Below are positions 11,191 through 14,642 of a DNA stretch of 29,870 bases, one piece after another. The stretch lies in the IMG/VR virus record IMGVR_UViG_2695420871_000012; one strand, 5' to 3'. The position numbers and the translations under genes were made by a program. Each line of letters opens with the position of its first letter. Within the stretch, counting starts at the first letter, position 1. A model generated the notes under the pieces. The model saw nothing but the letters and a program-made list of their open reading frames with translations, made no database searches and was not told where the DNA came from. Source of the stretch: a virus. Its lineage: Duplodnaviria > Heunggongvirae > Uroviricota > Caudoviricetes.

Positions 11191-14100
11191 ATGGGAAAAG
11201 GTGGCGGTAAGGCACACACGCCTCGTGAGGCGAAGGATAATCTCAAATCCACGCAGATGATGAGCGTGATTGATGCGATTGGTGAGGGACCGATAGAAGG
11301 TCCGGTGAAGGGACTGCAGAGTATCCTGGTGAACAAAACCCCGCTGACGGACACGGACGGTAATCCCGTGATACACGGTGTGACGGCGGTCTGACGCGCC
11401 GGGGAGCAGGAGCAGACACCACCGGAAGGCTTTGAGTCCTCCGGTGCTGAAACCGGACTGGGCGTGGAAGTGACGAAGGCAAAACCGGTGACGCGCACCA
11501 TTACGTCCGCGAACATTGACCGCCTGCGGGTTACCTTCGGGGTGCAGTCACTGGTGCAGACCACGTCAAAGGGTGACCGAAACCCGACATCCGTCCGCCT
11601 GCTGATTCAGTTACAGCGTAACGGTAACTGGGTGACAGAAAAGGATGTCACCATTAACGGCAAGACCACCTCGCAGTTTCTGGCGTCGGTGATTCTGGAT
11701 AATCTGCCTCCCCGTCCTTTTAACATCCGGATGGTCCGGGAGACAGCGGACAGCACCACGGACCAGCTGCAGAATAAGACGCTGTGGTCGTCATACACCG
11801 AAATCATCGATGTGAAACAGTGCTACCCGAACACGGCCATTGTGGGGCTGCAGGTGGATGCGGAGCAGTTCGGCGGCCAGCAGATGACGGTGAACTACCA
11901 TATCCGCGGTCGCATCATCCAGGTGCCGTCAAACTATGACCCGGAAAAACGCACGTACAGTGGTATCTGGGACGGCAGCCTGAAACCGGCATACAGCAAC
12001 AATCCGGCCTGGTGTCTGTGGGACATGCTGACTCACCCGCGCTACGGCATGGGAAAACGTCTGGGGGCGGCGGATGTGGACAAGTGGGCGCTGTATGCCA
12101 TCGGGCAGTACTGCGACCAGACGGTCCCGGATGGTTTCGGGGAGACCGAGCCGCGGATGACCTTCAATGCGTACCTGGCACAACAGCGTAAGGCATGGGA
12201 CGTGCTCAGTGATTTCTGCTCGGCGATGCGCTGTATGCCGGTATGGAACGGCCAGACGCTGACGTTTGTTCAGGACCGCCCGTCGGATGTGGTGTGGCCG
12301 TACACCAACAGCGATGTGGTGGTGGATGATAACGGCGTGGGTTTCCGCTACAGCTTCAGTGCCCTGAAGGACCGGCACACGGCGGTGGAGGTGAATTATA
12401 CCGACCCGCAGAACGGCTGGCAGACCTCCACGGAACTGGTGGAAGACCCGGAAGCCATACTGCGCTACGGACGCAACCTGCTGAAGATGGACGCGTTCGG
12501 CTGTACCAGCCGCGGTCAGGCCCACCGTGCCGGACTGTGGGTGATAAAGACCGAACTGCTGGAAACGCAGACGGTGGATTTCACGCTCGGGTCTCAGGGG
12601 CTGCGGCACACACCCGGTGACATCATTGAAATCTGTGATAACGACTATGCCGGGACCCTGACCGGCGGACGTGTCCTGTCCATTGATGCTGCCACCCGCA
12701 CTCTGACGCTGGACCGTGAAGTGACACTTCCGGAGACCGGTGCCGCCACGGTGAACCTGATTAACGGCAGCGGTAAGCCGGTGAGTGTGGACATCACCGA
12801 ACACCCCGCGCCGGACCGGATACAGGTCAGTACCCTGCCTGATGGTGTGGAGACATACGGGGTGTGGGGACTCTCCCTGCCGTCACTGCGCCGTCGCCTG
12901 TTCCGCTGTGTCTCCGTCCGGGAAAACACGGACGGCACCTTTGCCATCACGGCGGTGCAGCACGTACTGGAAAAAGAAGCCATCGTGGATAACGGTGCCC
13001 GCTTTGAGCCGCAGTCAGGTTCCCTGAACAGCGTCATCCCACCGGCAGTGCAGCACCTGACGGCCAGTATCTGGCGCAGGCGAAATGGGACACGCCGCGG
13101 GTGGTGAAGGGTGTGCGCTTCAGTCTGCGCCTGACCAGTGGTAAGGGAACGGATGCCAGACTGGTGACCACCGCCATCACCGCAGACACGGAGCACCGTT
13201 TCAGCGGCCTGCCGCTCGGGGAATACACCCTGACGGTGCGGGCGATAAACAGCTATGGCCAGCAGGGTGAACCTGCCACCACCACCTTCCGGATTGCCGC
13301 ACCGGCAGCACCGTCGCGGATTGAGCTGACGCCGGGCTATTTTCAGATAACCGCAACGCCGCATCTTGCCGTTTATGACCCGACGGTACAGTTTGAGTTC
13401 TGGTTCTCGGAAAAGCGGATTGCGGATATCAGGCAGGTTGAAACCACAGCACGCTATCTTGGCACGGCGCTGTACTGGATAGCCGCCAGTATCAATATCA
13501 AACCGGGCCATGATTATTATTTTTACGTTCGCAGTGTGAACACCGTTGGCAAATCGGCATTCGTGGAGGCTGTCGGTCGGGCGAGCGATGATGCGGAAGG
13601 TTACCTGGATTTTTTCAAAGGAGAGATAGGGAAAACACATCTGGCTCAGGAGCTGTGGACGCAGATTGATAACGGTCAGCTTGCGCCTGACCTGGCTGAA
13701 ATCAGGACGTCCATTACGGATGTCAGCAATGAAATCACGCAGACTGTCAATAAGAAACTGAAAGACCAGAGTGCGGCAATCCAGCAGATACAGAAGGTTC
13801 AGGTTGATACAAATAATAATCTGAACAGCATGTGGGCTGTGAAGCTGCAACAGATGAAGGACGGACGCCTTTATATTGCGGGTATCGGTGCCGGTATTGA
13901 GAATACGCCAGCAGGAATGCAGAGTCAGGTGCTGCTGGCGGCAGACAGGATTGCGATGATTAATCCTGCGAATGGCAACACAAAGCCGATGTTTGTTGGT
14001 CAGGGCGATCAGATATTCATGAACGACGTGTTCCTGAAACGCCTGACGGCTCCCACCATTACCAGCGGCGGTAATCCTCCGGCATTTTCCCTGACACCGG

Positions 14101-14642
14101 ACGGAAAACTGACCGCTAAAAATGCAGATATCAGTGGCAGTGTGAATGCGAACGCCGGGACGCTCAACAATGTCACAATTAATGAGAACTGTCAGATTAA
14201 GGGGAAACTGTCAGCCAACCAGATTGAAGGCGATATAGTCAAAACAGTGGGTAAGGCTTTTCCGCGGGACTCCCGGGCACCGGAGCGGTGGCCATCAGGG
14301 ACCATTACCGTCAGGATTTATGACGATCAGCCTTTTGACAGGCAAATTGTTATTCCGGCGGTGGCATTCAGCGGCGCTAAACATGAGCGGGAGAATAACG
14401 ATATTTATTCGTCATGCCGCCTGATAGTACGGAAAAACGGTGCTGAAATTTATAACCGTACCGCGCTGGATAATACGCTGATTTACAGTGGTGTTATTGA
14501 TATGCCAGCTGGTCGCGGCCACATGACGCTGGAGTTTTCGGTGTCAGCATGGCTGGTGAATAACTGGTATCCCACAGCAAGTATCAGCGATTTGCTGGTT
14601 GTGGTGATGAAGAAAGCCACCGCAGGCATCAGTATCAGCTGA
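11191..14642 (+). pseudogene. J: Lambda J-like central tail fibre / host specificity protein, disrupted by an in-frame TGA at 11392-11394 and a frameshift near 13063-13068
   Basis: Three collinear ORF pieces (11191..11394, 11464..13107 in the same frame as the first, 13101..14642 in another frame) matching lambda J end to end, e.g. MGKG…HTPREAKDNLKSTQ at the start and [23 protein letters not shown] in the last piece. Confidence 0.85.

What the first reader, a model, noticed from the sequence alone, without database searches (positions are those of the whole stretch)
11191..14642. Host-specificity protein J is doubly disrupted while the rest of the tail operon is intact
J matches lambda J along its length but carries an in-frame TGA at 11392-11394 (where lambda as recalled has a sense codon) and changes frame near 13063-13068, with a short deletion relative to lambda. 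Z through I, lom, stf and tfa have intact frames. Together with the missing head genes this marks a defective prophage in which the fibre and effector cargo is retained and the particle-forming function is lost.
Basis: seen in the sequence. Interest (0 to 1): 0.4.

Follow-up and report, generated by a model that had tools for sequence, protein, structure and literature searches.

The report
Dead tail-tip gene in Shigella prophage
The phage gene J, which builds the tail tip and recognises the host, is truly broken twice in this Shigella sonnei prophage remnant, and the breaks are inherited across the lineage, so this is ordinary prophage decay, not a sequencing error and not a new mechanism.

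Summary
Against an intact 3474-nt J from E. coli (97.9% identical), the window's J (11191-14642) has two disabling lesions. A G>A change at 11394 turns Trp68 (TGG) into TGA. A 22-bp deletion removes one copy of the 7-bp direct repeat CTGACGG plus the 15 bp between the copies (codons 623-630) and shifts the frame.

The window is a whole contig of a Shigella sonnei draft genome. Both lesions sit in identical sequence in 13 other assemblies. Neither occurs in 5,426 complete E. coli genomes. They are therefore real and lineage-specific.

All other tail genes (Z to I, lom) match an intact E. coli ompW-site prophage in length and frame. Gene stf also keeps an open frame. Head genes are cut away by an IS21 copy that leaves only the last 75 nt of FII. 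pN/pS of J is 0.13-0.15, the same as its neighbours at 0.12, so the gene died recently.

The only effector gene, ipaH, is a 307-codon 5' fragment of IpaHe without its ligase domain.

Verdict: a routine pseudogene in a decaying lambdoid prophage. Low interest.

The parts
11191..14642 (+). J (tip attachment / host specificity protein) pseudogene, 3452 nt against 3474 nt for the intact gene
   Evidence: It is 97.9% identical to intact E. coli gpJ. The intact relative matches lambda J (PDB 8IYK) end to end.
11392..11394 (+). Lesion 1: premature TGA replacing TGG (Trp68), caused by G>A at 11394. The next base is C.
   Evidence: Absent from all J copies in 5,426 complete E. coli genomes, where the best match over the surrounding 80 nt is 98.8%. 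Falls in strand beta4 (residues 65-71) of the HDII-insertion domain of lambda gpJ (PMC10721106).
13057..13063 (+). Lesion 2: junction of the 22-bp deletion. This is the single surviving copy of the 7-bp direct repeat CTGACGG. Codons 623-630 are removed and the frame shifts.
   Evidence: No complete E. coli genome carries this junction: the listed full-cover hits are all two pieces spanning 102 nt, and a one-piece 100% match would have ranked above them. Lies in the first FNIII/Ig domain after the hub (Pfam Ig_J, residues 609-712).
11191..11394 (+). J fragment 1, 67 codons
   Evidence: The exact product is indexed in 146 blocks of the public collection.
11464..13107 (+). J fragment 2, 547-aa ORF (hub domains; FNIII-A_GpJ and Phage-tail_3)
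   Evidence: Exact protein CSQ27542.1 is named host specificity protein J [Shigella sonnei].
13101..14642 (+). J fragment 3, 513-aa ORF (truncated Ig_J, Ig_J_second, Phage_Tail_Tip, C-terminal receptor-binding domain)
1105..3235 (-). Complete IS21 (istA 1962-3134, istB 1165-1965) that cuts off the head-gene half of the prophage
   Evidence: IstB_IS21, rve. (100% identity to annotated IS21 over about 2131 nt). The same IS21/FII' junction lies at the contig ends of L003, L006, L007 and L010.
3236..3310 (+). Remnant of the FII-like head-tail joining gene (last 75 of 354 nt)
3325..10847 (+). Tail genes with intact frames: Z 3325-3900, U 3897-4292, V 4300-5052, G 5066-5497, T 5524-5937, H 5918-8491, M 8488-8817, L 8817-9515, K 9526-10269, I 10167-10847
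   Evidence: same length as in intact prophage L012, 97.7-100% identity, no gaps, no stops. Pfam families.
14710..15309 (+). lom (Ail/Lom outer membrane protein), intact
15461..18774 (+). Side tail fibre stf (15461-18238, 925 aa) and assembly protein tfa (18241-18774, 177 aa), open frames
20644..21588 (-). ipaH' : 5' fragment (codons 1-307) of the effector gene ipaHe. The NEL ligase domain is missing.

Best explanation
J here is a fixed, recently formed pseudogene inside a decaying lambda-like prophage of Shigella sonnei. The prophage is of the type that sits next to ompW in E. coli. Two ordinary spontaneous mutations hit the gene. One is a G>A transition that makes a nonsense codon at codon 68. 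The other is a 22-bp deletion between two copies of a 7-bp direct repeat (slipped-strand or microhomology deletion) that shifts the frame at codon 623.

In lambda, gpJ forms the trimeric tail-tip hub and central fibre and carries the receptor-binding domain. Tail assembly starts from it (established lambda genetics, from my own knowledge). A product of 67 residues, or at best a hub fragment without fibre and receptor domain, cannot nucleate a normal tail or recognise a host.

An IS21 copy has independently removed the head and packaging half of the prophage. The element can no longer make particles. The remaining tail genes still have open frames only because too little time has passed for them to collect lesions.

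Shown: the two lesions, their presence across the lineage, the intact neighbouring frames, the IS21 truncation, and selection-like substitution ratios before the lesions arose. Inferred: loss of tail function, and the neutral (unselected) nature of the decay.
For: - Exact lesions against an intact relative.
- Both lesions, in a 100% identical 5' 2.1 kb, in 13 other assemblies from different submitters.
- Exact fragment proteins are named host specificity protein J [Shigella sonnei].
- Neither lesion occurs in 5,426 complete E. coli genomes or in 185,579 species-representative genomes.
- pN/pS of J against intact J is 0.13-0.15. The other tail genes together give 0.12. J therefore evolved as a working gene until recently.
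- All other tail genes are collinear with an intact prophage.
- IS21 cuts FII, and the same junction is seen in four other assemblies.
- Lesion 1 falls in strand beta4 of the HDII-insertion domain. Lesion 2 falls in the first FNIII domain after the four-domain hub (PMC10721106).
- Shigella genomes are known for IS expansion and pseudogene formation (PMC8072062, abstract).
Against: - No expression or particle data exist for this element.
- UGA followed by C is the weakest E. coli stop context (recalled from Poole et al. 1995, not checked here), and near-cognate readthrough of UGA inserts Trp, the ancestral residue. Lesion 1 alone would therefore be leaky. The frameshift is what makes the loss hard.
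- Two hits in J with none in 12 kb of other tail genes looks mildly non-random: the chance that both of two random hits land in J is about 0.05. Once the first hit removes selection, however, the chance that the second also lands in J is 0.22.
- Two assemblies (L005, L021) join the same lesion-bearing M-J segment to a different left module that carries head genes. The link between the J lesions and the head deletion is therefore not universal, or those contigs are chimeric.
Confidence: 0.9

Rival explanations
1. The stop codon and the frameshift are sequencing or assembly errors in a short-read draft contig, and the real gene is intact.
For: The window is a short-read draft contig. Sister assemblies from the same project contain scaffold joins marked by N gaps inside J. 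The right part of this contig carries long perfect repeats.
Against: Neither lesion is in a homopolymer. The same G>A and the same 22-bp deletion occur in 13 other assemblies from at least three accession series and pipelines, with no N gaps in the lesion region. The window itself has no N.
Confidence: 0.02
2. J is still partly functional. UGA-C readthrough restores Trp68 and gives a hub fragment of about 636 residues (622 J codons plus 14 out-of-frame). The 513-aa fibre and receptor part is made separately from the GTG at 13101, which overlaps the upstream stop (GTGGTGA). Together with the intact Z-I genes they would build a head-less tail, like an F-type tailocin.
For: The stop context is TGA-C. 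The start of the third ORF overlaps the stop of the second. J is homologous to the F2-pyocin fibre/hub protein over residues 3-727. All other tail genes are open. In some phages the hub and central fibre are separate proteins (PMC10721106).
Against: The deletion removes 7 codons and wrecks the first FNIII domain that links hub and fibre; Pfam Ig_J survives only from profile position 38. I saw no Shine-Dalgarno-like sequence upstream of either GTG (my reading). The split state is confined to one young clonal lineage and is absent from thousands of working J genes. This is the signature of decay, not of a conserved design. pN/pS gives no sign of a new selective regime. No lysis or regulatory genes accompany the cluster in the contig.
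Confidence: 0.03
3. The inactivation of J was selected, not neutral, for example to stop costly or lethal tail and particle production, or to remove a surface-active protein. This would explain why J was hit twice while its neighbours were spared.
For: There are two independent lesions in J and none in about 12 kb of other tail genes. Both are fixed in all assemblies examined.
Against: After the first lesion the second is expected to fall in J 22% of the time by length alone. Late tail genes of a prophage are not expressed without induction (general knowledge). Fixation is expected by drift in a clonal, recently emerged pathogen. No parallel J lesions at these sites occur in other lineages.
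Confidence: 0.05

Closest known systems
Bacteriophage lambda gpJ (tip attachment protein J; PDB 8IYK/8XCG)
   Same: Same gene position (after I, before lom and stf). The intact close relative aligns with lambda J over residues 1-836 and 839-1131. The same Pfam domain series is present.
   Different: Here the reading frame is broken at codon 68 (TGA) and at codons 623-630 (22-bp deletion). The intact form of this allele is 1157 aa against 1132 aa for lambda. Its C-terminal receptor-binding part is closer to other J variants (9wca, 8xcj) than to lambda's.
Lambdoid prophages at the ompW site of E. coli (PPompW of O157-type strains; L001 and L012)
   Same: Same gene order Z-U-V-G-T-H-M-L-K-I-J-lom-stf-tfa, then methyltransferase, Rha and Ash at the right end. 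Identity is 97-100% gene by gene.
   Different: The E. coli copies keep terminase, portal, capsid and an intact 3474-nt J. The Shigella copy has IS21 in place of everything left of FII codon 94, plus the two J lesions.
Defective prophages with a split J gene in E. coli O157 Sakai (e.g. VT1-Sakai / Sp15)
   Same: The VT1-Sakai record annotates J as two CDS under a 94% identical match (H33). A disrupted J in an otherwise lambda-like prophage therefore has precedent.
   Different: The lesions are different. I did not examine the Sakai lesion itself.
F-type pyocins (head-less lambda-like tail bacteriocins)
   Same: A lambda-like tail cluster without head genes. The J-like hub/fibre protein is homologous (25vf_A).
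   Different: F-pyocins need an intact hub/fibre protein and carry their own regulatory and lysis genes. Here the hub/fibre gene is broken and no such genes accompany it.

Membership tests
Lambda gpJ family (tip attachment / host specificity protein J) | Sequence homology to lambda J along the whole length | tested here: met
   The window DNA is 97.9% identical to an intact gpJ. That gpJ matches PDB 8IYK chain J at E=0 over residues 1-836 and 839-1131.
Lambda gpJ family (tip attachment / host specificity protein J) | Full domain series: FNIII-A, hub (Phage-tail_3), two Ig/FNIII domains, tail-tip fibre, C-terminal receptor-binding domain | tested here: met
   All six Pfam families are found across fragments 2 and 3. 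Ig_J is truncated to profile positions 38-104 by the deletion.
Lambda gpJ family (tip attachment / host specificity protein J) | Position between I and lom/stf in a lambda-type tail operon | tested here: met
Lambda gpJ family (tip attachment / host specificity protein J) | One uninterrupted reading frame of about 1130-1160 codons (needed to be a functional member) | tested here: not met
   TGA at codon 68 and a 22-nt frameshift deletion. It is a pseudogene of the family.
Defective (cryptic) lambdoid prophage | Phage structural gene cluster in phage order inside a bacterial chromosome | tested here: met
Defective (cryptic) lambdoid prophage | Loss or disruption of genes essential for particle formation | tested here: met
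   J is disrupted. FII is cut to 75 nt and everything upstream is replaced by IS21 and an Rhs fragment.
Defective (cryptic) lambdoid prophage | Inability to produce infectious particles | not testable with these tools
   Needs induction and plaque or electron-microscopy assays.
Programmed recoding site (stop-codon readthrough or programmed frameshift) | The stop or shift is conserved among functional homologues | tested here: not met
   No complete E. coli genome has the TGA or the deletion junction. No species-representative genome has either.
F-type tailocin | Intact hub/central fibre protein | tested here: not met
IpaH / NEL E3 ubiquitin ligase effector (the 'effector cargo') | N-terminal LRR domain | tested here: met
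   LRR_TTSS and LRR_1. 100% identity to IpaHe over 98% of the 314-aa query.
IpaH / NEL E3 ubiquitin ligase effector (the 'effector cargo') | Complete C-terminal NEL domain with the catalytic cysteine | tested here: not met
   Only NEL profile positions 2-46 of 223 are present. Homology to ipaHe ends at nt 921 of 1644. That the catalytic Cys lies further downstream is my recollection of IpaH structures.

The most novel reading that the evidence does not exclude
The head-less tail cluster is not simply dead. Leaky UGA-C readthrough restores the ancestral Trp and yields a truncated J hub. Together with the eleven intact tail genes and the side fibres, this hub assembles a tail-like particle. Alternatively, the cluster is kept as a donor of tail and fibre parts for other prophages in S. 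sonnei.
Probability: 0.03. Interest if true: 0.45.

Novelty: already known. Interest (0 to 1): 0.08.

Why it matters
It matters little beyond correct annotation. The three J fragments in S. sonnei assemblies should be annotated as one pseudogene, and this prophage should be scored as defective. The two lesions are clean, lineage-private markers. They could help to place S. sonnei isolates or to date the decay of this prophage. The case is also a small worked example of how to separate a real inherited pseudogene from a draft-assembly error without reads, by recurrence across independent assemblies. It opens no unresolved biological question.

Tried and rejected
- Assembly error: rejected because both lesions recur in 13 other assemblies.
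- 'Further decay' of the 3' part of J in L005, L007, L008 and L010: rejected. The odd structures sit exactly at N gaps, so they are scaffold joins.
- Recurrent deletion hot spot at the CTGACGG repeat: rejected. No complete E. coli genome has this junction.
- Order of the two lesions: could not be resolved. Scans of species-representative genomes for either lesion alone found nothing, and every assembly seen carries both.
- Literature on this particular pseudogene: accession and topic searches found nothing specific.
- Hidden gene in the 343-nt I-J spacer (ORF 10869-11210): no Pfam or PHROG match. The spacer is 100% identical in intact E. coli relatives. Not pursued.
- Exact look-up of the 314-aa IpaH fragment: not on record. 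I could not test whether the ipaH'/stf junction recurs in other assemblies.
- Tailocin reading: considered and rejected (see rival explanations).
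Full report
**What the sequence shows**

The six-frame ORF list has no single J frame. It has three consecutive plus-strand ORFs: 11191-11394 (67 aa), 11464-13107 (547 aa) and 13101-14642 (513 aa). The raw sequence shows GTC TGA CGC at 11389-11397.

A megablast of 11191-14642 against 5,426 complete E. coli genomes finds thousands of gpJ genes. The best are 97.9% identical and 3474 nt long, 22 nt longer than the window's 3452 nt. I fetched the best one (L001 12001-15474, annotated 'phage attachment tail tip protein J', 1157 aa) and aligned it globally with the window. 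The alignment has 53 substitutions and one gap.
- The only substitution in the first 250 nt is G>A at window 11394. It converts TGG (Trp68) into TGA.
- The gap is a 22-nt deletion of CTGACGGTGGAGGTGAGCGCAG (reference nt 1867-1888, codons 623-630). In the intact gene this stretch is followed by a second CTGACGG. The deletion therefore removed one copy of a 7-bp direct repeat plus the 15 nt between the copies. That is the classic footprint of slipped-strand or microhomology deletion.
- The surviving repeat is at 13057-13063. The upstream frame then runs 14 out-of-frame codons (13064-13104) to the TGA at 13105-13107.

I only add that the deletion is exactly 22 nt and lies between direct repeats.

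**Relation to lambda J**

The intact relative matches lambda J (PDB 8IYK chain J) over residues 1-836 and 839-1131 at E=0. Lambda has Phe where the relative has Trp68.

According to the lambda tail structure paper (PMC10721106), residues 65-71 form strand beta4 of the HDII-insertion domain. The FNIII-A domain (72-215) follows immediately. After the four-domain hub come two FNIII domains, then the central fibre and the receptor-binding domain.
- Lesion 1 stops translation after 67 residues, before almost all of the protein.
- Lesion 2 falls in the first FNIII domain after the hub (Pfam Ig_J, residues 609-712 of the intact protein). The third ORF keeps that profile only from position 38.

**Is it real?**

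The window is the complete contig CXEH01000067.1 of assembly GCA_001259515.1. The exact 547-aa and 513-aa products carry the source name 'host specificity protein J [Shigella sonnei]'.

Exact-product look-ups returned contigs from many other assemblies. I aligned their J regions.
- All have A at the Trp68 position and the identical 22-nt deletion.
- The 5' 2.1 kb is 100% identical to the window in L003-L011, L013, L018, L020 and L021.
- That makes 13 assemblies besides the window's own. They come from at least three accession series (CX..., UE.../CA..., AB.../DA...).
- The window contains no N.
- Neither lesion lies in a homopolymer.

Sequencing or assembly error is therefore excluded for practical purposes.

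Apparent extra rearrangements in the 3' part of J in L005, L007, L008 and L010 sit exactly at N gaps. They are scaffold joins, not biology.

**Is it specific to this lineage?**

- An 80-nt probe across the deletion junction finds no complete E. coli genome with the junction. The listed full-cover hits are all two pieces spanning 102 nt, which is the undeleted state, and a one-piece 100% match would have ranked above them.
- An 80-nt probe around the TGA finds 5,025 J copies in 1,844 genomes. None is better than 98.8% identical, so none has the TGA in this context.
- Exact-pattern scans of 185,579 species-representative genomes found neither lesion.

The lesions are private to the S. sonnei lineage sampled here. 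They are not a conserved recoding feature of J genes.

**The surroundings**

I compared the window gene by gene with an intact E. coli prophage of the same type. That prophage (L012) sits beside ompW-yciE-trp and carries terminase, portal and capsid genes. In the window, Z, U, V, G, T, H, M, L, K, I and lom have exactly the same lengths, no gaps and no stops, at 97.7-100% identity. Gene stf also keeps an open frame.

Gene I is best read from 10167 (226 aa). It then overlaps K by 103 nt, as in lambda (the lambda overlap is from my own knowledge), because that start recovers the N-terminal part of the Pfam profile.

Homology to the prophage begins at 3236, which is nt 280 of the 354-nt FII-like gene. 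Only its last 75 nt survive. To the left lies a complete IS21, 100% identical to annotated IS21 copies (about 1105-3235). Beyond it is the C-terminal fragment of an Rhs protein. The same IS21/FII' junction is present at the contig ends of L003, L006, L007 and L010.

The cause is IS21.

**How old are the lesions?**

Nei-Gojobori counts give the following.

| Comparison | pN/pS | Synonymous | Non-synonymous |
|---|---|---|---|
| J vs L001 | 0.15 | 35.3 | 16.7 |
| J vs L012 | 0.13 | 57.8 | 23.2 |
| The other ten tail genes plus lom, combined | 0.12 | 54.8 | 21.2 |

Almost all divergence between this J and working J genes therefore arose under purifying selection. The gene was disabled recently on that scale. 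This fits the near identity of the pseudogene among assemblies and the recent clonal origin of S. sonnei (my knowledge of Holt et al. 2012, not checked here). It also explains why the neighbouring tail genes are still open: there has been too little time for further hits.

Two hits in J and none in the other roughly 12 kb is not remarkable. J makes up 22% of the 15.45-kb Z-tfa block. After the first hit removes selection, the second lands in J about one time in five.

**Mechanism and consequence**

The lesions themselves are shown. The functional consequence is inferred from lambda biology.
- gpJ trimers form the tip from which the tail is built, and they carry the receptor-binding domain. J-defective lambda makes no functional tails (established genetics, from memory).
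- UGA followed by C is a weak stop in E. coli (recalled from Poole et al. 1995), and readthrough of UGA usually inserts Trp, the ancestral residue. The nonsense codon alone might therefore be leaky.
- The 22-nt deletion cannot be bypassed. It destroys the domain that links hub and fibre.
- Together with the loss of all head genes, the element cannot form particles.

I rate 'recent neutral decay of a prophage remnant' at 0.9.

**Rivals**

- Assembly error: 0.02. See above.
- A still-working split J or a tailocin-like use of the head-less tail cluster: 0.03. For it: the leaky stop context, the stop-start overlap GTGGTGA at 13101-13107, and the homology of J to the F2-pyocin hub/fibre. Against it: the destroyed FNIII domain, no visible ribosome-binding sites, no lysis or regulatory genes in the contig, and the restriction of the split state to one young lineage.
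- Selected, not neutral, inactivation: 0.05. It cannot be excluded, but nothing requires it.

**The 'effector cargo'**

The only effector-like gene is on the minus strand at 20644-21588.
- Pfam finds the T3SS LRR domain and only positions 2-46 of the 223-position NEL ligase profile.
- The best solved relative is IpaH3, 571 aa.
- The database search finds IpaHe of S. flexneri, 547 aa, 100% identical over 98% of the query.
- At DNA level, homology to ipaHe ends at nt 921 of 1644, which is codon 307. There the sequence switches, without microhomology, to an inverted copy of stf nt 16883-17329.

The ligase domain is absent in this contig. The claim that the effector is retained does not hold.

In closed S. 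flexneri genomes, intact ipaHe sits in the same kind of place: between a methyltransferase gene and convergent tail-fibre genes of a lambdoid remnant. The location is therefore natural. The truncation is what differs.

**Caveat on the right third of the contig**

- Region 17300-19388 is repeated as a perfect 2089-nt inverted copy at 22554-24642.
- Region 16883-17329 is repeated as a perfect 447-nt inverted copy at 20220-20666.
- The methyltransferase module occurs three times.
- Other assemblies (L003, L004 and others) show a simpler arrangement. In them, the segment equivalent to window 17300-20249 lies in the opposite orientation.
- The 30 nt shared by the two repeat families include TTATCGAATACCTCGGTTTACGAGAA (17304-17329). 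From memory, this resembles the crossover sites of the Gin/Pin/Cin invertases.

I cannot tell whether the window shows a true inversion or inverted duplication, or a path threaded through repeats by the assembler. This does not touch the J result.

**Comparison with what is known, and verdict**

This is a pseudogene member of the lambda gpJ family inside a defective lambdoid prophage. That kind of object has been described many times. The VT1-Sakai record also annotates J as two CDS. Shigella genomes are known for IS expansion and pseudogenes (PMC8072062, abstract).

No paper on this particular lesion turned up. The fragments are already annotated in public records. Novelty: already known. Interest: 0.08.

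Noticed in passing
window 20644-21588 (minus strand); junction at 20666/20667: ipaH gene fragment: the first 307 codons of IpaHe (intact form 547 aa), joined without microhomology to an inverted copy of stf nt 16883-17329. The NEL ligase domain is missing.
   Followed up: partly
window 16883-17329 / 20220-20666 and 17300-19388 / 22554-24642: Two perfect inverted repeats (447 nt and 2089 nt) plus three copies of a methyltransferase module (21868-, 25038-, 27226-). This is either an inverted duplication of the tail-fibre cassette or a contig threaded through repeats. It is unusual for a short-read contig.
   Followed up: partly
window 17304-17329 (also inverted at 20220-20249 and 24613-24642); L003 14240-17194: A 26-nt sequence, TTATCGAATACCTCGGTTTACGAGAA, resembles Gin/Pin-type crossover sites. 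It sits where the tail-fibre C-terminus and tfa cassette (17300-20249) is inverted relative to other S. sonnei assemblies. The neighbouring invertase is only a 60-aa remnant in L004. A real flip would need an invertase in trans or homologous recombination. An assembly artefact is not excluded.
   Followed up: partly
window 26147-27304 (plus strand), flanks 25038-26046 and 27226-28234: An IS110-family transposase gene is flanked by a direct duplication of about 1 kb of the methyltransferase/tfa-fragment region. This is far longer than a target-site duplication, so it is probably another repeat-driven join or a recombination product.
   Followed up: no
L005 1-12319 and L021 (assemblies GCA_001259615.1, GCA_001256715.1) against window 8318-13446: In two S. 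sonnei assemblies the same lesion-bearing segment (end of H, M, L, K, I, 5' J; 100% identical from window 8318) is joined on the left to a different lambdoid module. That module has capsid, FI and FII genes, and its Z-H genes are only 75-77% identical. This is either a second prophage sharing the broken J by recombination, or a chimeric contig.
   Followed up: partly
window 13447-13451: Three clustered differences (CA..A against GC..C) separate this contig from 12 of the 15 other S. sonnei assemblies that cover these positions (L020 matches the window; L021 and L022 do not reach this far). This may be a small conversion tract from another J paralogue or a mixed-copy consensus.
   Followed up: no
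window 10848-11190 (ORF 10869-11210, plus strand): The I-J spacer is 343 nt, against about 60 nt in lambda (from memory). It holds an unannotated 113-aa ORF. The spacer is 100% identical in intact E. coli relatives, and the ORF has no Pfam or PHROG match.
   Followed up: partly
window 160-1074 (minus strand): C-terminal fragment of an Rhs protein (RHS repeats plus a DUF4329 tip) lies directly left of IS21. The prophage's left half has been replaced by unrelated chromosome, which suggests an IS21-mediated deletion or inversion.
   Followed up: no
L022 2268-3431 (GCA_902710815.2): A related tail cluster carries a 387-aa porin gene (Porin_1/Porin_4) inserted between the M-like and L genes. This is an unusual cargo position.
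   Followed up: no
window 10167-10847 against 10266-10847: Gene I is annotated as 193 aa in E. coli RefSeq relatives. The 226-aa reading, which overlaps K by 103 nt as in lambda (lambda overlap from memory), recovers the full Lambda_tail_I profile, so the RefSeq starts are probably too short.
   Followed up: partly
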